DNA from: Candidatus Parcubacteria bacterium
GTDB taxonomy: Bacteria > Patescibacteriota > Minisyncoccia > Phycocordibacterales > UBA918
Reading direction: 5' to 3'
Length of the DNA stretch: 34,903 nt
Assembly: GCA_046050355.1 (NCBI GenBank)
Contig: JBJOPW010000012.1
Coordinates: 1-34,903 of the forward strand
The notes below the pieces were generated by a model. That model searched no databases and was not told the DNA's origin. It saw nothing but the letters and a program-made list of their open reading frames with translations. The translations under genes were made by a program, and so were the position numbers. Shown here in pieces: positions 3,957 through 11,139 of the stretch (positions within the stretch are counted from its first letter, which is position 1; every line of letters begins with the position of its first letter).

Positions 3957-6032
3957 ATGGCATTGCGTTCTTTAACTGTCGTGGATATCGACGAAGCACC
4001 TACTAGAAAGCGTAAAGTAGCGACCCCTAAAAAAGTCGCTCCCAAAGCAAAAAAGCGCCCAAATCTCGAAGCGACGACTGTCGACCCGGATTTGTACGTC
4101 AGTGCCGAAACCACCGAAAAAGAAAGTATTACGCTGCCAACCAAAGCCAAAGTCAAAAAAGCTTCTGACAAAAAAGCCGTGGTGAAAAAAGTCGCTGTCA
4201 AAAAGACCAAGGCAACAAAAACTGCAGTTGCGGTGACCACGAGTGAGCCTGAAACAGAAGCCCATCATGACCACGAGCACCCACCTCTCTCATGGGTGCC
4301 GTCTCGCCCGCTCTCTGGCAAAGACAAAATCGCCATCAAGCGTCACCCGCTTGGTCACCTTCTCCTTGAGAAGAAACTCCGTGAAGCCGGCTTCCGTGGC
4401 GGTATTAGTAGTGATAAAAAAGTGCTCGAAAAGTACAGTACTGACGAGAGTATCTTTCATATTCGTCCACAGATTGTTATCCAACCAAAAGACCGTAAGG
4501 ATGTCGAAACCGCCGTGAAGCTGATTGCAGTTGAAACCAAGCGCTTCACCTCCCTCTCCCTCACCCCACGTGCGGCTGGTACCGGTCTCTCCGGCGGATC
4601 ACTCACCGACTCAATCGTGATTGATGTCGCACCACACCTCACCCATATTCACGAAGCGAAGAGCACCCCTGAGGGTGGAACTATCGTCTGTGAACCAGGC
4701 GCGATGTGGCGTGATGTCGAAAAGAAACTCAAGAAAGTTGATTCGTACATTCCGTCATACACCTCATCAAAAGATATCTGTACTATTGGCGGCGCTATCG
4801 CGAACAACGCTGCTGGTCCTGACTCACTCCGCTACGGGCACTGTGCTGAGTGGGTGGACTCGATGGATGTGGTGCTCCATGATGGTAATACGTACACGCT
4901 GCGTCCCCTCTCGTACAAGGAGTTCAAATCACTGGTGAAGGAAAAGCATGCCTACGCGCGGATTGCACGTGAAGTCTTTGCCCTGATAGAAAAGAATGAA
5001 TCCCTCATCGAAAACGGGCGACCAAAAACTGCCAAGAACTCGGCCGGCTACGCGCTTTGGGATGTGATCTCGACCACCGTCGCAGATTTCAAGGCTGGTA
5101 AAGGCACGTTCGACCTCGGTCGTATCATCTCTGGTAGTCAGGGAACGGTGGGTGTGATTGTTGGTCTCACCATCAAGGCGATCAAGATTCAAAAGAATAC
5201 CACGCTTATTGCCCTTCCCCTCTTTAAGCTCGAAGATGCCGCGAAGTCAATTGTGACCGCACTCAAGTACAATCCGATCAATGTCGAAATCTTTGACGCC
5301 CTTACTTTTGACCTCGCGCTCAAGAACCCCGACTTCTTCAAGGCTCGCCTCCAGGGCATGGACTACTACAAAGTCATCCTTTCGATGTACACGACATTCC
5401 ATATCCGCTTTGGTCGTCAGACTCCAGAGTTCACTATCCTCATCACCCTCGACGAAGCCACTACAAAAGAGACTCCGGCCCAAGAAATCGCTGCGAAGGT
5501 CTCAGCGCCCGGAGCTAAGGCCCGCGTCATCAAAAACCCAAGTGAAGTCGAGATGTTCCTCCAGATTCGTCGTGCGAGCTTTTCACTCTCAAAGCTCCTT
5601 GATCCGGAGAAGCGTCCCGCGGCCTTCCTCGAAGATATGACTGTCCCCCCAGAAAATCTTGGCAAATTCTTTATGGAAATCAAGTCCCTCTTTAAGGAGT
5701 TTAATGTGAAGTCTGCCATCCACGGTCACGGGGGCAATGGTCACTTCCACTTCTATCCGCTTCTCGACTTCACGAAGGCCAACACCCCACTTCTGATCGA
5801 ACGCATGGCCGAACGTTTCTACAACACGGCAGTAAAATACAAGGGTAATATCTGTGGCGAGCACAACGACGGCATCATCCGCACTCCCCACCTCTCAAAA
5901 ATATTCAAAAAGCCTGTCCTTGATCTCTTCACGAAGACCGAAGCAATATTCGACCCCGACGACATCTTCAACCCGGGCAAAAAAGTAAACCCTCGTTTTG
6001 ATATCAAAGAATCAATCCGACATACAAACTAG
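3957..6032 (+). CDS. FAD-binding oxidoreductase (GlcD/D-lactate dehydrogenase-like, FAD_binding_4 + FAD-oxidase_C) with a Lys-rich N-terminal extension
   Basis: YSTDESIF..RPQIV..PK, PRAAGTGLSGGS, CTIGGAIANNAAG..SLRYG, GSQGTVG, FLEDMTVP, GHGGNGHFH, GEHNDG, FDPDDIFNPGK. Confidence 0.9.
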   Translation: MALRSLTVVDIDEAPTRKRKVATPKKVAPKAKKRPNLEATTVDPDLYVSAETTEKESITLPTKAKVKKASDKKAVVKKVAVKKTKATKTAVAVTTSEPETEAHHDHEHPPLSWVPSRPLSGKDKIAIKRHPLGHLLLEKKLREAGFRGGISSDKKVLEKYSTDESIFHIRPQIVIQPKDRKDVETAVKLIAVETKRFTSLSLTPRAAGTGLSGGSLTDSIVIDVAPHLTHIHEAKSTPEGGTIVCEPGAMWRDVEKKLKKVDSYIPSYTSSKDICTIGGAIANNAAGPDSLRYGHCAEWVDSMDVVLHDGNTYTLRPLSYKEFKSLVKEKHAYARIAREVFALIEKNESLIENGRPKTAKNSAGYALWDVISTTVADFKAGKGTFDLGRIISGSQGTVGVIVGLTIKAIKIQKNTTLIALPLFKLEDAAKSIVTALKYNPINVEIFDALTFDLALKNPDFFKARLQGMDYYKVILSMYTTFHIRFGRQTPEFTILITLDEATTKETPAQEIAAKVSAPGAKARVIKNPSEVEMFLQIRRASFSLSKLLDPEKRPAAFLEDMTVPPENLGKFFMEIKSLFKEFNVKSAIHGHGGNGHFHFYPLLDFTKANTPLLIERMAERFYNTAVKYKGNICGEHNDGIIRTPHLSKIFKKPVLDLFTKTEAIFDPDDIFNPGKKVNPRFDIKESIRHTN

Positions 6033-6048
6033 TACAGAATAATAGACG

Positions 6049-6078
6049 AGCCCGCGCAGTTTCCCGCGCGGGCTTTTC
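6049..6078. terminator. Terminator between convergent genes
   Basis: agcccgcgc / gcgcgggct stem followed by tttt. Confidence 0.7.
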
Positions 6079-6100
6079 GTTATCTATAGCTTCTGGAAGT

Positions 6101-6499
6101 TCATGCCTTCAGTTCGATGGATTCGACGTAAACGGCATGCAACTCAACCCGCTTTTGCACAGTACCCAGCAGCCATCGCAAGTTATTCGCCTCGAATGTT
6201 AACGAGCTGACGAAGAACAAGCGGTTAGCATTGCCGAGGTCCTGCTGAACACAGAACCCAGTGTCAGTGGTCTCCCATATCTTGCTGATGAGACCTGAAG
6301 CGGGCTCGTCTCGAACCGCGAGATGAGCTGGCACTACCGACCACACGGTAACGTCATAGTAACCAGCTTCTCCAGCATTCCGTGCAAGCCGAATGGTGCA
6401 AAGAACTTCTTCATGGGCCGTAGTAGTTGTGGTCAGAACCGGCAGTTTGCCGGAGAACACGCGACCGCAGTCGCGAAGAATCGTAAAACTAAGCGACAT
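6101..6499 (-). CDS. Hypothetical protein (ORFan cassette)
   Basis: 132-aa ORF, AGGAAGGGG SD, TAGTAT -10 upstream, hairpin downstream. Confidence 0.6.
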   Translation of the reverse strand: MSLSFTILRDCGRVFSGKLPVLTTTTTAHEEVLCTIRLARNAGEAGYYDVTVWSVVPAHLAVRDEPASGLISKIWETTDTGFCVQQDLGNANRLFFVSSLTFEANNLRWLLGTVQKRVELHAVYVESIELKA

Positions 6500-6571
6500 G
6501 GGTCACCCCTTTCCTTTCCTAATCTCATACTACCCCGTATGACCAAAAGCGCAAGTAATCAAAAATGAGTA

Positions 6572-6596
6572 CAACCCCGTATGGAATACGGGGTTG
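6572..6596 (-). terminator. Hairpin terminator of 6598-6969
   Basis: caaccccgtat-gga-atacggggttg directly after the stop codon. Confidence 0.65.
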
Positions 6597-6597
6597 C

Positions 6598-6969
6598 TTA
6601 GTCTGTCTTTTCGCACATGAGGTGCTGTGCTAGCTGCCGCAAAAGCGGCAGGTACCGGGTCGAGCGGTGACCTACCTCCAAGGAGATCGGGTAGTCCGGT
6701 CGGAAGCGAAAGATGAGCCACCGAAAGCCGATTAGCCCAAGCGCATACTCCGGGTCTGGGAGATAGCACTCCTCCGCCAGCTGTCGAAACGTCTTGGTTC
6801 GCCGCCAGGTTTGGTCGACCCACTGCAGAGGCGCATCCCACCACTCCGCCTGTCCGTAGTACAGCTGCCGCGGCACCATCACGTGGAATGTAGGCAAAGA
6901 CGGCATCATACAATATGTCATGACACGGTCACGACTGATATGCGCGAGTCGGCAATCGATGTATAGCAT
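6598..6969 (-). CDS. Hypothetical protein (ORFan cassette)
   Basis: 123-aa ORF, AAAGGAGG SD, TTGCAA-17-TAGGAT promoter. Confidence 0.65.
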   Translation of the reverse strand: MLYIDCRLAHISRDRVMTYCMMPSLPTFHVMVPRQLYYGQAEWWDAPLQWVDQTWRRTKTFRQLAEECYLPDPEYALGLIGFRWLIFRFRPDYPISLEVGHRSTRYLPLLRQLAQHLMCEKTD

Positions 6970-7047
6970 TGTCTTTCCCTCCTTTCGCTGCTGAAGTCAC
7001 TACATGTCTACTCCTATCCTACCGCCAAGAATTGTTTTTGCAACCAT

Positions 7048-7091
7048 CAAACGAAAGCGGGCGCGCGAGGGATATTCTCCTCGCGCGCCCG
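7048..7091 (-). terminator. Intrinsic terminator of 7096-7584
   Basis: 13-bp stem cgggcgcgcgagg / cctcgcgcgcccg with a T-rich tail on the minus strand. Confidence 0.72.
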
Positions 7092-7095
7092 TGCT

Positions 7096-7584
7096 TCACG
7101 CCCGGCCAGCTGTGGGCAAGTTGATGAGTCTCACATCAGCTTCTGAATTGCCAATCTCATGGCAAAACTCTTTCCCGATTGCCAGAAGTGAATCGAGGCC
7201 GCTGCGAATCATGCCGTCGACGAGATCGACATCAAATTCTTCAGCGTCTTCACTGAACATAGAGTCCCGCCATACCACCAAACCCAGCTCATGGTTGTAA
7301 ATGAGGGCACCGTAGCACATCTCCGTGTCGATTCTACCAATACGTCGATATGCATCCAGCTCATCTAGCGGGTTCGGGAACTCTAGCACCAAAGCGAGAG
7401 TCAGCGTAAGAGGCACCTTAATCGTCGCGGTGCCGCTGTACATTTGACCTTGGTAAACGAAGTGGAATTCGATACTTTGCACATCAGTCCGCCACTCATA
7501 GTCTTGGCCATGCTCATTCACCCAGCCAATAAGAGCCTCAAGCGGCGCAGACCATGCCTCCTCGTCTTCCTCATCAGTGTTCAT
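7096..7584 (-). CDS. YbjN-like (type III secretion chaperone-like fold) acidic protein
   Basis: Size, acidity and the pattern PLE.L...D..W...I..EM.YG.L.Y...G.VVWR.S...PTAGRA resemble alphaproteobacterial YbjN-domain proteins (recalled, not searched); AGGGG SD. Confidence 0.55.
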   Translation of the reverse strand: MNTDEEDEEAWSAPLEALIGWVNEHGQDYEWRTDVQSIEFHFVYQGQMYSGTATIKVPLTLTLALVLEFPNPLDELDAYRRIGRIDTEMCYGALIYNHELGLVVWRDSMFSEDAEEFDVDLVDGMIRSGLDSLLAIGKEFCHEIGNSEADVRLINLPTAGRA

Positions 7585-7724
7585 AGCAATCCCCTATGTC
7601 ATGCTTCCACCGGGTAGCCTACGCCATCTTTTTGTAACTGTCCACGACCCCTTCCCTTTTTCTCAATTCTCTGCTATAAATATGGGCACTTTTCGCCCCC
7701 AAAGCGCAGAAGTACAAATGAATA

Positions 7725-7754
7725 TTGACCAAGCCCGTCTAACGCTAGGATAAT
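7725..7754 (+). promoter_or_regulatory. Candidate sigma70 promoter for tRNA-Glu
   Basis: TTGACC-18 bp-GATAAT about 105 nt upstream of the tRNA. Confidence 0.45.
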
Positions 7755-7859
7755 GAAAGAGTATGGGATACTCTTTCATCCGCAGGGAAAGTTTTCATCA
7801 ATGAAAACCTGACAGGTAGGTTCAAAAAAGCAGAAATGCATTGAGGAAAAAAGAATATT

Positions 7860-7931
7860 GGCCCTATCGTCTAACGGCTAGGACATCAGGTTTTCATCCT
7901 GGAAATCGGAGTTCGATTCTCCGTAGGGTCA
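7860..7931 (+). tRNA. tRNA-Glu (TTC), CCA not encoded
   Basis: Acceptor GGCCCTA/TAGGGTC-A; D arm CGTCTAACGGCTAGGAC; anticodon arm TCAGG-TT-TTC-AT-CCTGG; T arm CGGAG-TTCGATT-CTCCG. Confidence 0.96.
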
Positions 7932-7938
7932 CGCGATT

Positions 7939-7980
7939 ATAACAACAAACACCGCATAGCTATGCGGTGTTTGTTGTTAT
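7939..7980. terminator. Perfect 42-bp palindrome after the tRNA (terminator or cruciform)
   Basis: ataacaacaaacaccgcatag|ctatgcggtgtttgttgttat. Confidence 0.75.
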
Positions 7981-7981
7981 T

Positions 7982-8208
7982 GCTGGCAAACAAGGTTTGC
8001 CAGCCTCGCGTGACCCTACGAGGAAATATGCTGGGAGCATATTTCCGTGAGAATCGAAGCTGTTGCCAGATAGATTATGAGCGTAGCGAAATAATCTAGC
8101 GACAACGGGTACTGGTCCTGTAAGGACCGATTCTCCGTAGCGAGTCGGGGTCGAGAGTACTTAGTAGATTTTGAGCACAGCGAACAAATATACTTAGTAA
8201 CTCGTGAC
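7982..8208. repeat. tRNA-linked branched palindromic element with inverted and direct copies of the tRNA-Glu 3' end
   Basis: 8007-8020 is the reverse complement of 7922-7935; 8049-8058 is the reverse complement of 7912-7921; 8128-8140 equals 7914-7926; two hairpin loops share TGAGCRYAGCGAA. Confidence 0.75.
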
Positions 8209-8307
8209 AATAGCTATAAAAGACAGCAGCGTTATTGTTACAAAATCATTATAGAGTTATAAATTTTAGTTAGTACTATTTTGTCGCAATAGCATGTCAA
8301 CTAACTA

Positions 8308-9822
8308 CTATGCATGTAGACTAGCATCAATTTGTTTGAGCTTCTCAATGACTTCTGTCGCAGATAGTGCAAATTGCTTTTTTGCTTCTTCTTCATCATT
8401 ACTCACCCAATCTTTTACCTCAATAAGTAAATTAATTTTTTTTAATCGTTTTTCCTCCTTTGTTAACGTAGTATCATTTCTAATCTCCGAATTGAACTTA
8501 TCTTTAAAGATCTTGGGATAATACTCTTCGAAATCATGCTCGTTAAATTGCAAAAAATTTTCTTCTTTCCAACCATCCTTCACTACATACTTTGCTTTAA
8601 ACTTTTCAATAATTGCCGCCTCACTTTCTCCACCATCTAAAATTACCCAGGCTTTGTTTCTATATATTGGTTCCAGATGTACAAAGACAAATAAATTATT
8701 AAATTCTTCAAAGCGCATTTCAATCTTTGATTTGCCAGCCGACGAATGAGTTCTGATTTTTTGATTAAGATTTGGAATAAACCAAGGTATGATATACTCG
8801 CGAATAATTAGCTCAGCAGATGATTCTTCTAAAAAGAGGTATCCCATGTACTGTCCGTAATCAAAAAATTCATAGCCAAGGTTTTCGAGGGCATCCATTC
8901 TTTCCTTTGATGTCTTTATTTCTTTAACTTGTGAAACAAATAATTTTGGTCTTTCTGCATCACTTAACTGAGTACTTACTTCAAATACTTTTGCATTACT
9001 ACTTGCACCAAGCATTCGCATAACAATATTTGAATGTGTTGAAACAAAAAACTGATTTGTTTCAGACTTTCTTGCTATCAAGGACAGAAGTGACTTCAAA
9101 GCTTTTGGATGTATGTCATTTTCAGGCTCTTCTATTATAAATATTTTATTCTTTGCCACACACAAATCTGCAATTAAACCTAAAAGGTTTGGAATACCTT
9201 CTCCCATACTCGTCATGGGGATTTCATCAAAACCGCCAAGTTTATAAACGGCCTGCTTTCCATTACCTTCTCCTCCTGAAGTTGATATGCGGAATCCTAA
9301 AATTTCATCACATGCTTCGACATATTCTTGGTACCAGCTTGCCTCTGGATCAGATAATCTATCAATTTTTGCGTACAAATGTGTAAAATTTCCCACAACG
9401 GAATTTGCTGCACCTTTATTTACATCGGGTGAGTAAGTAACAACTTTTCGCTTTGAAAGATAAGGGTATATTAAATTATCTGGTTCTGATTGATTTGCAG
9501 CGCCATTCCACCCAGCCTCACCAGTATGAGTAAGTATATGTCTTTGATTACCATTTAAATGAAAAACGAAACCTAACATTCTGTCTGAAAAACCTGGGTG
9601 ACTTCCTGCTGTATACAACTTAACTAACCCGTTTATGTTACCAACAGTTTGATCATACATATTCAATGCCTCCCTTTTTTGAATTAGATGTATAGCATTT
9701 AATATTGTTGACTTACCAGAGTTATTTTCACCAATAAAAATATTTATAGACTCAGAAAAATCTGTCTTTGGTAACGACTTGAAACCTTTAACACTTTGTA
9801 ATTCAATTCCGATAACTTTCAT
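8308..9822 (-). CDS. OLD-family-like ABC ATPase / TOPRIM-like nuclease (candidate defence gene), AT-rich
   Basis: IELQSVKGFK, Walker A IGENNSGKST, MGEG signature, Walker B IEEPENDIHP, FVSTHS, then LFLEESSAE / SAGKS / WVILDGG / DFEEYY TOPRIM-like motifs; visibly more AT-rich than its neighbours; start at MKVIG preferred over the TTG at 9849. Confidence 0.78.
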   Translation of the reverse strand: MKVIGIELQSVKGFKSLPKTDFSESINIFIGENNSGKSTILNAIHLIQKREALNMYDQTVGNINGLVKLYTAGSHPGFSDRMLGFVFHLNGNQRHILTHTGEAGWNGAANQSEPDNLIYPYLSKRKVVTYSPDVNKGAANSVVGNFTHLYAKIDRLSDPEASWYQEYVEACDEILGFRISTSGGEGNGKQAVYKLGGFDEIPMTSMGEGIPNLLGLIADLCVAKNKIFIIEEPENDIHPKALKSLLSLIARKSETNQFFVSTHSNIVMRMLGASSNAKVFEVSTQLSDAERPKLFVSQVKEIKTSKERMDALENLGYEFFDYGQYMGYLFLEESSAELIIREYIIPWFIPNLNQKIRTHSSAGKSKIEMRFEEFNNLFVFVHLEPIYRNKAWVILDGGESEAAIIEKFKAKYVVKDGWKEENFLQFNEHDFEEYYPKIFKDKFNSEIRNDTTLTKEEKRLKKINLLIEVKDWVSNDEEEAKKQFALSATEVIEKLKQIDASLHA

Positions 9823-9873
9823 ATTTCTTTCTACAGAGATAGAGTGCAATCATTAACTTATTATACGCCTAAG

Positions 9874-10404
9874 CTATTTCACCCCCACCTCAATCACTCC
9901 CCCATCTGCAATCGAATCCGGCAACAGCTCACCCAAGTACGTCAGTATTCGCTTGATCGAACCGCCATGTCCTAAAATCGCAATCGTCTCATACGACTGT
10001 TCTTTTATCTTTTCAAACGCTGCCACGACACGGTCATTAAAATCTTCAAAACTCTCGCCTTCGGGGTCGGTGTTCATCGGGTCTTTGTGGGCGGCTACTG
10101 CTTCGGGATACTGCTCCAGGGCTTCTTGCTTGGTCAGACCAGTCAACACGCCATAGTGACGTTCCTCAAGTCCCTGCCACTCCACAATTGGACAGCCGAT
10201 GCCACCACTGATTATCTCAGCACTTTCGCGCGCACGTATAAGTGGGCTATGGAAGATAACCTCGATACCCTTGCCAGCTACCTGGGTAGCTGTTGCAGCG
10301 AGCTGTTCGTGGCCGCGTTCGGTCAGATGGTCGTCGTAACTCCCTCCATAGCGGTCTTCCAAATCGCCAGTAGTCTCCCCGTGTCTAATGAGAAATATTT
10401 TCAT
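9874..10404 (-). CDS. Histidine phosphatase (phosphoglycerate mutase superfamily)
   Basis: LIRHGET, LTERG, SPLIRA, LEERHYG, GES, GHGG. Confidence 0.92.
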   Translation of the reverse strand: MKIFLIRHGETTGDLEDRYGGSYDDHLTERGHEQLAATATQVAGKGIEVIFHSPLIRARESAEIISGGIGCPIVEWQGLEERHYGVLTGLTKQEALEQYPEAVAAHKDPMNTDPEGESFEDFNDRVVAAFEKIKEQSYETIAILGHGGSIKRILTYLGELLPDSIADGGVIEVGVK

Positions 10405-10650
10405 GTTGCTAGTATACCAAATCTACTCCTTTTTATAAAAAACACCAGAAAAAGAAAACCGCCCGACCTATGAGAGCTATATAGTTTTCTAGTTAAGTAC
10501 CGGTTTCCATGACTTCTTCAGATATGCAGTTGAGTATCGAGCAACATTTACTTTGGTTGCATTAAACAAAAATGTGTTGCATATTAGTAGCAATAGTACC
10601 CTTGTCGTGAAGGTCTCACGAAGTACCAAAATCACCTGCAGGAGAGAAAG

Positions 10651-11139
10651 ATGGATCGGCGAATCACCCGCAAGGATTTCCAGGACCAAGCAGATGCCAA
10701 TGTTGGCGTCACCTGGGCAGACAGTGATGCCCAAAAAGCCCTTTTCGATGCAATCAAGAAAGACGATGTTGCATCTGCCCTAGGCAAACGTGTTGTAATG
10801 TGGATGGTTGAAGCTGCCAGTCTCAAGTTGTCTACCCCAGTTGAAGTCTCGTTCTACTACGACGTCTGGGGTCGAGATCTTGCCTGTGAAATCCAACACG
10901 ACGCCGACACTCTTTCGGGTGGTCGGATGAGGCAGCTTTGGCTTGACTGTGGCGTCGGCCGTCATCTTACCCATCACACAGGCGGACGAGACAATCTGCT
11001 ACGCTGGAACAGCAACGTTCGTGCCTCGACACTTTGGATTGCTGAGGGTGATGACTGGTACAACCACAAGGACAAAGCCCTTGTGGTGACACCAAACTTG
11101 GCTGAGATTGGCGCTTTTCCGCTACTGCATCCGCATTGA
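10651..11139 (+). CDS. Hypothetical protein (ORFan cassette)
   Basis: 162-aa ORF, AGGAG SD, terminator after the stop. Confidence 0.65.
   Translation: MDRRITRKDFQDQADANVGVTWADSDAQKALFDAIKKDDVASALGKRVVMWMVEAASLKLSTPVEVSFYYDVWGRDLACEIQHDADTLSGGRMRQLWLDCGVGRHLTHHTGGRDNLLRWNSNVRASTLWIAEGDDWYNHKDKALVVTPNLAEIGAFPLLHPH

What the first reader, a model, noticed from the sequence alone, without database searches (positions are those of the whole stretch)
7912..8208. Branched element made of inverted and direct copies of the tRNA-Glu 3' end
Seen: after the tRNA come a perfect 42-bp palindrome and a second hairpin (7982-8004). Then comes the exact reverse complement of tRNA positions 7912-7935, split into 8007-8020 and 8049-8058 by an inserted hairpin (ggaaatatgct-ggg-agcatatttcc). 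Further on is a direct copy, cgattctccgtag (8128-8140), continuing as gggtc after a 7-nt insert. The inverted copy can therefore pair with either the real T-arm/acceptor strand or the downstream copy. Two side hairpins carry the same loop, TGAGCRYAGCGAA (8078-8090, 8172-8184). Known: integrase att sites duplicate tRNA 3' ends as direct repeats, not as interrupted inverted copies. Inference: a tRNA-targeted mobile structured element that carries target-matching segments, in the manner of guide- or bridge-type elements, or a switch controlling tRNA 3' maturation. A foreign-looking nuclease gene lies immediately next to it.
Basis: partly seen in the sequence, partly recalled or inferred. Interest (0 to 1): 0.78.

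Follow-up and report, generated by a model that had tools for sequence, protein, structure and literature searches.

The report
Hairpin repeats built on tRNA ends
The odd structure after this tRNA gene is one copy of a repeated DNA element, found across one order of tiny-genome bacteria, that settles at the ends of tRNA genes and builds its stems from inverted and direct copies of whichever tRNA it sits beside.

Summary
The scaffold after tRNA-Glu (7860-7932) has two parts. One is a ~115-nt core of three hairpins (h, A1, A2), covered by covariance-model hit 8000-8131. The other is a second hairpin module, B (8141-8208).

- **Spread.** The core has 39 model hits in this 0.94-Mb genome. It occurs in 89 of 151 genomes sampled from the same order (labels point to class Paceibacteria, candidate phyla radiation). 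Outside the order it was found in 1 of 150 other genomes sampled across the phylum.
- **Tracking.** In two genomes (~78% identity) the segments flanking the scaffold follow the neighbouring tRNA. The inverted copy beats all cross-pairings at 18 of 42 and 15 of 45 tRNAs.
- **Boundary.** The inverted copy ends at tRNA position 54 in 32 of 43 cases.
- **Turnover.** Identical or orthologous tRNAs carry or lack the element. At one locus the downstream direct copy is the original 3' end.
- **DNA-level signs.** Stems are almost purely Watson-Crick. Copies nest and form tandem arrays. Away from tRNAs they lie in either orientation.

Best reading (0.55): a mosaic mobile repeat acting at the DNA level that enters hairpin loops of tRNA genes and duplicates the target. 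No transposase, reverse transcriptase or nuclease co-varies with it, so the mechanism is inferred. A guide-type reading is not excluded. A tRNA-maturation switch is unlikely.

The parts
7860..7932 (+). tRNA-Glu(UUC). T-loop 7912-7918 (T54 = 7912), T-stem 3' strand 7919-7923, acceptor 3' strand 7924-7930, A73 7931, then C 7932. No CCA is encoded.
   Evidence: ARAGORN; Rfam tRNA 58.8 bits; positions read.
7912..7936 (+). Source segment X: T-loop to 3' end plus a 4-nt trailer. It is copied downstream both inverted and directly.
   Evidence: Inverted pairs I2 and I8 and direct pair D2.
7939..7980 (.). Perfect 42-nt palindrome just after the tRNA, with a T-rich 3' arm. It did not meet the terminator criteria of the scan tool.
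   Evidence: I1, 100%; one search found no terminator-like site. Identical in L272.
7982..8004 (+). Second hairpin: 10-bp stem, 3-nt loop.
   Evidence: I9.
8006..8020 (+). X'acc: inverted copy of the trailer plus acceptor 3' strand (complement of 7922-7936).
   Evidence: I2. The same part tracks other tRNAs.
8022..8046 (+). Hairpin h (GGAAATATGCT-GGG-AGCATATTTCC), flanked by AG and CGT. It sits at the junction between the acceptor-stem and T-stem complements.
   Evidence: I7. Equivalent hairpins with different, compensated stems stand at the same place behind other tRNAs. In L272 it is replaced by another variant.
8049..8058 (+). X'T: inverted copy of the T-stem 3' strand plus T-loop (complement of 7912-7921). 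It ends at the complement of T54.
   Evidence: I8. Boundary at position 54 in 32 of 43 such blocks.
8060..8108 (+). Hairpin A1, long, with apical loop TGAGCGTAGCGAA (8078-8090).
   Evidence: Folds. Covariation: 15 of 16 pairs change on both sides across 59 copies.
8109..8113 (+). Conserved linker (G)GTACT between A1 and A2.
   Evidence: Alignment A1, nearly invariant columns.
8114..8128 (+). Hairpin A2: GGTCC-TGTAA-GGACC. The loop is constant. The 3' strand runs into the direct tRNA copy.
   Evidence: 5 of 5 pairs covary.
8128..8140 (+). X: direct copy of tRNA positions 7914-7926 (T-loop to start of the acceptor strand), cut short by module B.
   Evidence: D2, 13 of 13.
8141..8208 (+). Module B: the hairpin GGGGTCGAGAG...CTCGTGAC with loop TGAGCACAGCGAA (8172-8184). 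It is a second repeat family.
   Evidence: BLAST gave 12 other copies in the genome; 9 of them lie behind tRNAs on the same strand. Many copies occur in the genus.
8000..8131 (+). Extent of the core element (X'acc, h, X'T, A1, A2) as matched by covariance model R1.
   Evidence: 80.5 bits, E = 3.9e-20.

Best explanation
This is one copy of a mosaic, non-autonomous repeat family that acts at the DNA level and is confined to one order of small-genome bacteria (Paceibacteria-type, candidate phyla radiation).

**Building blocks.** There is a ~115-nt core: hairpin h, linker, long hairpin A1, linker (G)UGUACU, and a 5-bp hairpin A2 with loop TGTAA. There are also B-type hairpin modules.

**Where they lodge.** The modules settle in hairpin loops of DNA, above all the T-loop of tRNA genes.

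**What arrival does.** The target is duplicated.
- The tRNA keeps a complete new 3' end (T54 onward).
- A palindromic hairpin follows it.
- Next comes an inverted copy of trailer, acceptor strand and T-arm that stops at T54.
- Then come the modules.
- Last is the displaced original 3' end as a direct copy, which pairs with the inverted copy.

**Mechanism I think most likely (inferred, about 0.35 on its own).**
1. The tRNA-sense strand is nicked between G53 and T54.
2. Synthesis from the 3'-OH regenerates the tRNA end and the downstream palindrome while displacing the old strand.
3. At the palindrome the new strand switches template onto the displaced strand and copies it back to its 5' end (T54). 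This makes the inverted copy.
4. The modules cap and join that end to the displaced original.

Later recombination between copies swaps modules and makes tandem arrays.

**Shown:** the architecture, the tracking, the boundary, the gain and loss, and the direction at one locus. **Inferred:** the nick, the template switch and the joining.
For: **Recurrence**
- The stretch 7933-8300 has 31 matches in the genome.
- BLAST copies of its two halves (8043-8132, the A1-A2 part of the core, and 8139-8211, module B) lie within 600 nt downstream of 13 of 42 tRNAs, all on the tRNA's strand.
- Core model R1 gives 39 hits in this genome and 37 in G007.
- It matches 89 of 151 genomes of the order, but only 1 of 150 other genomes sampled across the phylum.
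- In 20 loci from 20 other genomes, 9 of 20 top hits and 13 of all 24 hits lie within 250 nt downstream of a same-strand tRNA.

**Tracking**
- The inverted-copy score of a tRNA against its own downstream region beats all cross-pairings for 18 of 42 tRNAs (G000). The direct copy does so for 17 of 42.
- In G007 the figures are 15 of 45 and 17 of 45.

**Sharp boundary**
- Of 43 inverted T-arm blocks, the innermost complemented position is 54 in 32, 53 in 6, 52 in 2, 56 in 2 and 47 in 1.
- The direct copy starts at 53-56 in 24 of 36.

**Continuous palindromes**
- Near-perfect palindromes with arms of 22-33 nt run from the hairpin loop through the trailer at least 8 nt into the tRNA at 10 of 87 tRNAs, with ungapped arms.

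**Turnover and direction**
- Orthologous tRNA-Glu loci in the genus carry or lack the element.
- Six metagenome contigs with the identical tRNA differ downstream.
- At tRNA-Glu(CUC), G000 is empty and G007 is filled. The sequence after the downstream copy in G007 (CCA AAGAGAGAGCTGGTTCGAGC) matches the flank of empty sites.
- CCA is encoded in 3 of 50 element-bearing tRNAs and 13 of 37 element-free tRNAs.

**DNA-level signs**
- Stem cells: 1113 Watson-Crick, 26 G-U, 11 A-C and 57 other, of 1207.
- 20 of 21 pairs change on both sides; 0 of 500 shuffles reach the observed value.
- Cores nest inside the loop of h of other cores and form tandem arrays.
- Cores also sit in partial duplicates of the 5S rRNA 5' end and of the rnhB start.
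- Of 22 cores away from tRNAs, all are intergenic. Both flanking ORFs are on the opposite strand for 9 and on the same strand for 6 (crude ORF calls).

**Module swapping**
- The window and L272 differ at 3 of 163 positions from the tRNA through X'acc. Yet h, A1 and A2 are all replaced by other variants.

**Not tRNA-type lineages**
- Cores at different tRNA types resemble each other across species. Only the Met copy pairs with its ortholog. The target-derived parts must therefore be made anew at each site.
Against: **No enzyme found**
- The genome has one IS200-type TnpA, three RAYT-like Y1 genes, one Xer-like recombinase, one P4-type integrase and one DGR-like reverse transcriptase. None is next to a copy, and the TnpA flanks do not resemble the modules.
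- Across 151 genomes I counted, from the listed handles, genomes with both / element only / gene only / neither:
  - RAYT-like: 53 / 36 / 33 / 29.
  - Reverse transcriptase: 41 / 48 / 21 / 41.
  - Small GIY-YIG: 68 / 21 / 45 / 17.
- These show no association.

**Signs of constraint**
- The sequence is conserved across more than 100 families of the order.
- Syntenic copies in G000 and G007 are 91-95% identical (0.86 for one pair) where the flanks are 78-84%. That is more constraint than a decaying selfish repeat should show.

**Signs of single-strand folding**
- G-U outnumbers A-C 26:11 in alignment A2 and 15:2 in the seed alignment (my tally of the pair types). This points to one strand folding, which RNA would also explain.
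- The inverted copy, h and the direct copy together mimic the acceptor/T-arm helix of a tRNA, with a branch where the tRNA body would leave. That looks selected.

**Gaps in the model**
- h interrupts the inverted copy, and a single template switch does not explain this.
- The direction of insertion rests on one locus.
Confidence: 0.55

Rival explanations
1. A functional structured RNA. The region after the tRNA is transcribed and folds into a tRNA-like helix: inverted copy paired with direct copy, h as the body, A1 and A2 as extra arms. tRNA-handling enzymes such as RNase P, RNase Z or the CCA-adding enzyme would recognise it, or it would pair with the tRNA 3' half. The outcome would be processing, decoy or regulatory RNAs specific to each tRNA.
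For: - Strong covariation in the hairpins.
- G-U exceeds A-C on the tRNA-sense strand, 26:11.
- All tRNA-adjacent copies are co-oriented with the tRNA.
- The branch hairpin sits at the acceptor/T-stem junction.
- Syntenic copies are more conserved than their flanks.
- The sequence is conserved across the order.
Against: - The inverted copy follows a hairpin plus T-run in many loci (my reading).
- Only 2% of stem cells are G-U.
- 21 of 35 cores (G000) and 26 of 37 cores (G007) are not near a tRNA. Such copies lie in either orientation relative to the flanking genes.
- Identical tRNAs lack the element in relatives.
- 62 of 151 genomes of the order have no match.
- There is no Rfam match.
- A sharp copy boundary at T54 and copying of the trailer fit templated DNA synthesis better than selection on RNA.
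Confidence: 0.2
2. Products of site-specific recombination. A tyrosine recombinase (Xer-like or integron/CTX-like) would recombine a folded single-stranded or circular form of the element with the tRNA T-arm. In that form the inverted-plus-direct copies mimic the double-stranded tRNA gene end. The outcome is att-like direct repeats of the tRNA 3' end.
For: - Direct repeats of the T-loop-to-3'-end flank the insert, as at attL/attR of tRNA-integrating elements.
- The breakpoint G|TT in GGTTCGA resembles, from my recall, the G|TT crossover of integron core sites.
- The T-arm is a natural inverted-repeat core site.
- One Xer-like gene is present.
- A foreign 1.7-kb segment in the window begins exactly at the direct copy.
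Against: - A recombinase-borne att site is fixed, whereas these segments match more than 20 different tRNAs.
- Cores do not form tRNA-type lineages.
- No dedicated integrase accompanies the copies. The one P4-type integrase lies elsewhere.
- This model gives no reason for the inverted copy or for its inclusion of the trailer.
Confidence: 0.12
3. A guide-type mobile element. The target-complementary segments (the 5' strand of A2, X'T and X'acc) would act as guides, as RNA or single-stranded DNA. They would pair with the tRNA gene end and direct an as yet unrecognised, order-specific enzyme.
For: - The scaffold is constant while the complementary segments vary with the target.
- The A2 stem is always built from the first bases of the target plus their complement, while its loop TGTAA is constant.
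- At one locus the scaffold was exchanged while the target-matching parts stayed.
- The element is confined to one order.
Against: - No candidate protein was found: none of the known guide-using families and no gene linked to copies.
- Guides that match only the site where the copy already sits cannot direct a move to a different tRNA unless they are re-templated, which is the main explanation.
- Expression is unknown.
Confidence: 0.08
4. An assembly artefact at palindromes.
For: One metagenome contig (L269) ends exactly at the end of a perfect 2 x 50-nt palindrome. That pattern could be a fold-back misassembly.
Against: - The window's structure is internal to a 34.9-kb contig and is imperfect and modular.
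- It is reproduced with variations in L272 and in many genomes.
Confidence: 0.01

Closest known systems
REP/BIME-type mosaic intergenic repeats and MITEs of bacteria (features recalled)
   Same: Short, non-coding hairpin-forming modules in many intergenic copies. The modules combine in mosaics, nest and form arrays, and are often placed just after genes.
   Different: - The flanking stems are copies, inverted and direct, of the neighbouring gene's end and change from site to site.
- There is a strong preference for tRNA T-loops, with a breakpoint at position 53/54.
- There is no link to RAYT-like genes and no DDE transposase in the genome.
tRNA-targeting integrative elements (attL/attR duplication of the tRNA 3' end; recalled)
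   Same: The insert lies between two direct copies of the T-loop-to-3'-end segment. The tRNA stays intact. At one locus the downstream copy is the original end.
   Different: - The insert is only 100-350 nt and carries no integrase.
- The same scaffold serves more than 20 tRNA species.
- An inverted copy of the target, including the trailer, is always part of it.
IS200/IS605-family elements, their hairpin-ended derivatives, and IS91 rolling-circle elements (recalled)
   Same: The hairpins are strand-specific, with a small excess of G-T over A-C pairs. Short segments beside a hairpin pair with the target. The junction sequences GAAC and CAAG equal, as I recall, the complements of the IS91 targets GTTC and CTTG.
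   Different: - No Y2 transposase is present.
- The single IS200 TnpA has unrelated flanks.
- Those families make no long target duplications and no inverted copy.
Templated palindrome extension and inverted duplication by template switching at hairpins (known from replication and repair studies; recalled, and seen only as search listings)
   Same: Near-perfect palindromes centred on a hairpin extend into unique flanking sequence.
   Different: Here it happens at dozens of tRNA genes with one fixed boundary, and it is coupled to conserved modules and a direct copy.
IS110 bridge RNA and TIGR-Tas guide arrays (TIGR-Tas: passages of PMC12045711 read; IS110: recalled)
   Same: A constant structured scaffold carries segments complementary to a DNA target. 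TIGR-Tas occurs in Parcubacteria.
   Different: - No IS110 or Nop-domain gene is present.
- There are no tandem 36-nt units.
- The segments match the adjacent site rather than a distant target.

Membership tests
MITE | Terminal inverted repeats belonging to the element and a short fixed-length target-site duplication | tested here: not met
   The ends are target-derived and differ at each site. The duplicated segment is about 18-25 nt, and an inverted copy is present as well.
MITE | A related autonomous element with a transposase in the same or related genomes | tested here: not met
   No rve, DDE_Tnp_1, TnpB, Y2 or IS110 gene in the genome. The TnpA flanks are unrelated.
REP/REPIN-RAYT system | Co-occurrence with, and usually flanking of, a RAYT gene | tested here: not met
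   Counts are 53 both, 36 element only, 33 RAYT-like only, 29 neither, of 151. The flanks of the three RAYT-like genes carry other palindromes.
Integrase att sites at tRNA genes | Direct repeat of the tRNA 3' end bounding the insert | tested here: met
   Direct copies at 17 of 42 and 17 of 45 tRNAs. In the window, 8128-8140 equals 7914-7926.
Integrase att sites at tRNA genes | An integrase gene within the insert, or one specificity per element | tested here: not met
   The inserts are 100-350 nt without ORFs. The same scaffold stands at more than 20 tRNA species.
IS110 bridge-RNA element | A DEDD recombinase gene with the structured RNA in its 5' region | tested here: not met
   No PF01548 match in a 99.97% complete genome.
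TIGR-Tas | A Nop-domain Tas protein and a tandem array of dual-spacer units | tested here: not met
   No PF01798 match. The architecture is not a tandem array of 36-nt units.
Integron attC site | An imperfect hairpin with R''/L''-L'/R' boxes next to cassettes and an IntI integrase | not tested
   Only a recalled likeness of the G|TT breakpoint. No attC model was run.
Rfam RNA families (riboswitch, T-box, ribozymes, tRNA-like RNAs) | A covariance-model match | tested here: not met
   No match besides tRNA, 5S rRNA and a partial group I intron in the window and in 15 other loci holding copies.
Intrinsic terminator | A GC-rich hairpin followed by a T-run | tested here: inconclusive
   The scan found none in 7700-8400. 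Hairpins with T-runs are visible after other element-bearing tRNAs (my reading).

The most novel reading that the evidence does not exclude
This would be a new kind of mobile element that needs no dedicated transposase gene. A small structured single-stranded scaffold would enter 7-nt hairpin loops of tRNA genes and build its own stems by copying the target: the A2 stem, X'T and X'acc. These would serve as programmable target-matching segments, used either by host replication and repair enzymes or by an unrecognised enzyme specific to this order. Each copy would then be locked to, and possibly able to re-home to, the tRNA it sits beside.
Probability: 0.25. Interest if true: 0.9.

Novelty: new variant of a known kind. 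Interest (0 to 1): 0.78.

Why it matters
- **Genome content.** Bacteria of the candidate phyla radiation have tiny genomes and few recognisable mobile elements. Yet roughly half the tRNA genes in two of them carry this structure.
- **Scaling the rule.** The rule 'constant scaffold, target-copied stems, breakpoint at T54' can be checked at scale with the covariance model built here.
- **Mechanism.** If the mechanism is a loop-directed nick with templated copying, it would show how repeats spread and how tRNA gene ends are remodelled without classical transposases.
- **Programmable targeting.** If the target-matching parts act as guides, this would be a small system that targets DNA by base pairing.
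- **Annotation.** These regions should not be read as att sites of lost prophages or as misassemblies. They also mark hot spots where foreign genes enter, such as the ATPase segment in this window.

Tried and rejected
- **RNA evidence.** No RNA holder was listed for window 6000-11000. Laying the three same-study runs on 7600-8500 placed only short tRNA-like pieces from other organisms on 7858-7934. Expression therefore remains unknown.
- **Known RNA families.** None matched.
- **Candidate partner genes.** RAYT-like Y1, reverse transcriptase and small GIY-YIG genes show no co-occurrence with the element. I made these cross-tabulations by hand from the listed handles, taking unlisted genomes as no match. 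Kin are not independent.
- **The reverse transcriptase.** It has an Avd-like four-helix neighbour (my reading of the sequence), so it is probably part of a diversity-generating retroelement. It is not near any copy.
- **Viral contigs.** Three exact-pattern scans found nothing. The pattern had a wrong spacing, corrected.
- **Genome-contig scan.** The 16-nt motif scan mostly returned chance hits in unrelated phyla. Only the few labelled Kaiserbacteria, Zambryskibacteria, Paceibacteria, Saccharibacteria or Patescibacteria were informative.
- **A conserved 'master' gene.** Rejected. In genomes with a single copy it lies behind different tRNAs, or behind none.
- **tRNA-type-specific lineages spread by homologous recombination.** Rejected as the main route. 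Cores at different tRNA types are each other's best matches across species.
- **L269.** Its perfect 100-nt palindrome reaches the contig end and may be a fold-back misassembly, so I do not lean on it.
- **Literature.** Seven full-text searches gave no description of such elements. I read passages of PMC12045711 and PMC8172020; neither bears on them. Supplements were not seen.
- **A correction.** An early note of mine said modules follow at least 15 tRNAs. A recount gives 13 of 42.
Full report
**1. The observation**

tRNA-Glu(UUC) lies at 7860-7932. After it come:
- a perfect 42-nt palindrome (7939-7980);
- a second hairpin (7982-8004);
- the reverse complement of the tRNA's trailer and acceptor strand (8006-8020);
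- a hairpin (8022-8046);
- the reverse complement of the T-stem 3' strand and T-loop (8049-8058);
- further on, an exact 13-nt direct copy of 7914-7926 at 8128-8140.

Two hairpins carry the loops TGAGCGTAGCGAA (8078-8090) and TGAGCACAGCGAA (8172-8184). The 356-nt stretch folds far better than shuffles, z = -10.1.

**2. It is a repeat family tied to tRNA genes**

The window is contig 12 of a 0.94-Mb, 99.97% complete genome. Pieces of 7933-8300 recur 31 times in that genome. BLAST copies of its two halves lie within 600 nt downstream of 13 of 42 tRNA genes, always on the tRNA's strand. The halves are 8043-8132 (the A1-A2 part of the core) and 8139-8211 (module B).

Reading those regions gave a common plan:
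1. the tRNA;
2. a short trailer;
3. a palindromic hairpin that includes the trailer;
4. X'acc, the inverted copy of trailer plus acceptor 3' strand;
5. 'AG', hairpin h, 'CGT';
6. X'T, the inverted copy of T-stem 3' strand plus T-loop;
7. a long hairpin A1 with apical loop UGAG-N-CGAA;
8. the linker (G)UGUACU;
9. a 5-bp hairpin A2 with loop TGTAA;
10. X, a direct copy from the T-loop to the 3' end.

B-type modules (GGGGTCG...GTGAC) can stand in or be added. Units can repeat in tandem.

**3. The complementary segments track each tRNA**

Each tRNA's last 21 nt was scored against its own and every other tRNA's downstream region.
- In G000 the inverted copy beats all cross-pairings for 18 of 42 tRNAs. 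The direct copy does so for 17 of 42.
- In G007, a second genome of the genus fetched whole, the figures are 15 of 45 and 17 of 45. G007 is about 78% identical to G000: 630 of 931 1-kb pieces aligned.
- The inverted T-arm block ends at tRNA position 54 in 32 of 43 cases and at 53 in 6.
- The direct copy begins at 53-56 in 24 of 36 cases.
- The 3' strand of A2 is the start of the direct copy (positions 52-56, often with one change). Its 5' strand is the complement, while the loop is constant.

**4. The core element and its spread**

A covariance model (R1) was built from 20 copies.
- It finds 39 matches in the genome and 37 in G007.
- It finds matches in 89 of 151 genomes sampled from the order, which spans more than 100 families.
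- In a phylum-wide sample it finds 1 match among 150 other genomes.
- Labels of a few hits in named records point to Paceibacteria-type candidate phyla radiation bacteria.
- In 20 loci from 20 other genomes, 9 of 20 top hits and 13 of all 24 hits lie within 250 nt downstream of a same-strand tRNA.
- The hairpins covary strongly: 20 of 21 pairs change on both sides, 94.4% of cells pair, and 0 of 500 shuffles reach this.

Only 14 of 35 cores in G000 and 11 of 37 in G007 are tRNA-adjacent. The rest are intergenic and lie in either orientation relative to their neighbours. Some sit inside the loop of h of another core. One sits in a partial duplicate of the 5S rRNA 5' end just upstream of the real 5S gene. 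One sits in a diverged duplicate of the first codons of rnhB just upstream of the intact gene. The common thread is insertion into hairpin loops with local duplication of the target, the intact gene copy being kept.

**5. Gain, loss and direction**

- Orthologous tRNA-Glu loci in the genus carry the element in some species and a plain hairpin or a gene in others.
- G000 and G007 differ in which tRNAs are occupied.
- Six metagenome contigs with the identical first 36 nt of this tRNA show empty, simple and complex downstream regions.
- At tRNA-Glu(CUC), G000 is empty and ends ...GGGTCACCA followed by AAGAG..GGTTCAAGCG. G007 is filled, and that CCA plus flank follows the downstream direct copy. 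The tRNA itself is followed by new sequence (the same flank follows element-free tRNA-Glu in L014). So the downstream copy is the original end.
- In keeping with this, CCA is encoded in 3 of 50 element-bearing and 13 of 37 element-free tRNAs.

**6. Mosaic exchange**

L272 is a close relative of the window; its coding flanks are 87-89% identical.
- It matches the window at all but 3 of 163 positions from the tRNA through X'acc, and has the same X'T and X.
- Yet h, A1 and A2 are all different variants with compensated stems.
- A remnant of the window-type A1/A2 lies further downstream.
- The h variant of L272 is the one seen behind tRNA-Lys and tRNA-Met in G000.

Cores at different tRNA types are each other's best matches across species. 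The scaffold therefore moves or converts between sites, while the target-derived parts are local.

**7. DNA or RNA?**

*For a DNA-level origin*
- 92% Watson-Crick and 2% G-U in the stems.
- Near-perfect palindromes of 2 x 22-33 nt reach from the hairpin loop through the trailer into the tRNA.
- The trailer is copied.
- The boundary is sharp.
- Copies nest.
- Orientation is random away from tRNAs.

*For folding of one strand*
- G-U exceeds A-C 26:11 and 15:2 in the seed alignment (my tally of the pair types).
- The apical GC-NNN-GC mini-hairpins are, from my recall, a very stable DNA hairpin type.

No expression data could be had.

**8. Mechanism**

No enzyme could be tied to the element.
- The genome lacks the usual transposases and the known guide-using families.
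- What it has is one IS200 TnpA, three RAYT-like genes, a Xer-like and a P4-type recombinase, a DGR-like reverse transcriptase and small GIY-YIG genes. None is adjacent to copies.
- The three families tested do not co-vary with the element over 151 genomes.

The model that accounts for most features runs as follows:
1. A nick between G53 and T54 on the tRNA-sense strand.
2. Displacement synthesis that remakes the tRNA end and the palindrome.
3. A template switch at the palindrome onto the displaced strand, which is copied to its 5' end at T54.
4. Capping of that end by the modules, which joins it to the displaced original end.

This is inference. It does not by itself explain why h interrupts the inverted copy.

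**9. Comparison and verdict**

The element shares mosaic hairpin modules with REP/BIME-type repeats and MITEs. It shares the direct repeat of the tRNA end with integrated elements. It fails the defining tests of both: own terminal repeats and a transposase for the former, an integrase and a single specificity for the latter. It also fails those of bridge-RNA and TIGR systems.

Seven literature searches found no description.

I rate it a new variant of known kinds of repeat. There is a real chance (about 0.25) that it is a new kind of target-copying or guide-using element. Interest is 0.78.

Noticed in passing
window 8137-9876: This low-GC segment (0.35-0.37 against ~0.48) holds a 513-aa AAA_21/AAA_15 ATPase (8308-9849, minus strand). 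Its best defence-library hits are AriA and GajA, and Pfam finds no nuclease domain. The segment is absent from the close relative L272, where the histidine-phosphatase gene follows the direct tRNA copy after 2 nt. The foreign segment therefore begins exactly at the element's direct copy.
   Followed up: partly
G000:C2:125160-125452 (L054 61-353): A duplicate of the 5S rRNA start (13 nt of leader plus the first 23 nt, then nt 26-38), interrupted by a core element, lies 25 nt upstream of the intact 5S rRNA gene.
   Followed up: partly
G000:C6:37270-37480: A diverged duplicate of the first codons of rnhB (..VGIDEAG) is followed by a core element. The intact rnhB start comes 11 nt after it.
   Followed up: partly
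G000:C4:67900-68250 (L057, minus strand): A tRNA gene that ARAGORN missed appears to carry a group I intron (partial Rfam hit, 25.9 bits, below threshold). Its 3' end is also followed by a contiguous 22-nt inverted copy and modules.
   Followed up: no
G000 and G007, all tRNA genes: Most tRNA genes lack an encoded CCA and are followed by 'CA' after the discriminator (71 of 87 lack CCA).
   Followed up: partly
G007:C1:95523-95850: tRNA-Thr(UGU) is followed by two tandem copies of its 3' part starting in the anticodon loop. Each is preceded by a D-arm-like hairpin and an h-type hairpin. The constant A2 loop TGTAA resembles this tRNA's anticodon loop CTTGTAA.
   Followed up: no
G000:C11:987-2393 (L045): A 349-aa reverse transcriptase lies beside a divergent 117-aa four-helix-bundle (Avd-like) ORF. 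This is probably a diversity-generating retroelement.
   Followed up: no
G000:C4:33549-34760 (L044 769-1980): A 403-aa P4-type integrase sits on a contig of higher GC (0.51). It may mark an integrated island or foreign DNA.
   Followed up: no
L269:1495-1594: A perfect 2 x 50-nt palindrome (T-arm to hairpin loop and back) ends exactly at the contig end. It is either a pristine inverted copy or a fold-back misassembly.
   Followed up: partly
window 6500-7095: This GC-rich stretch has only overlapping ORFs without Pfam matches. It aligns only in patches to L272 (6513-6603, 6835-7107). Its nature is unknown.
   Followed up: no
order-wide: Small stand-alone GIY-YIG proteins (~85-95 aa) occur in 113 of 151 genomes, with up to 9 copies per genome.
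   Followed up: partly
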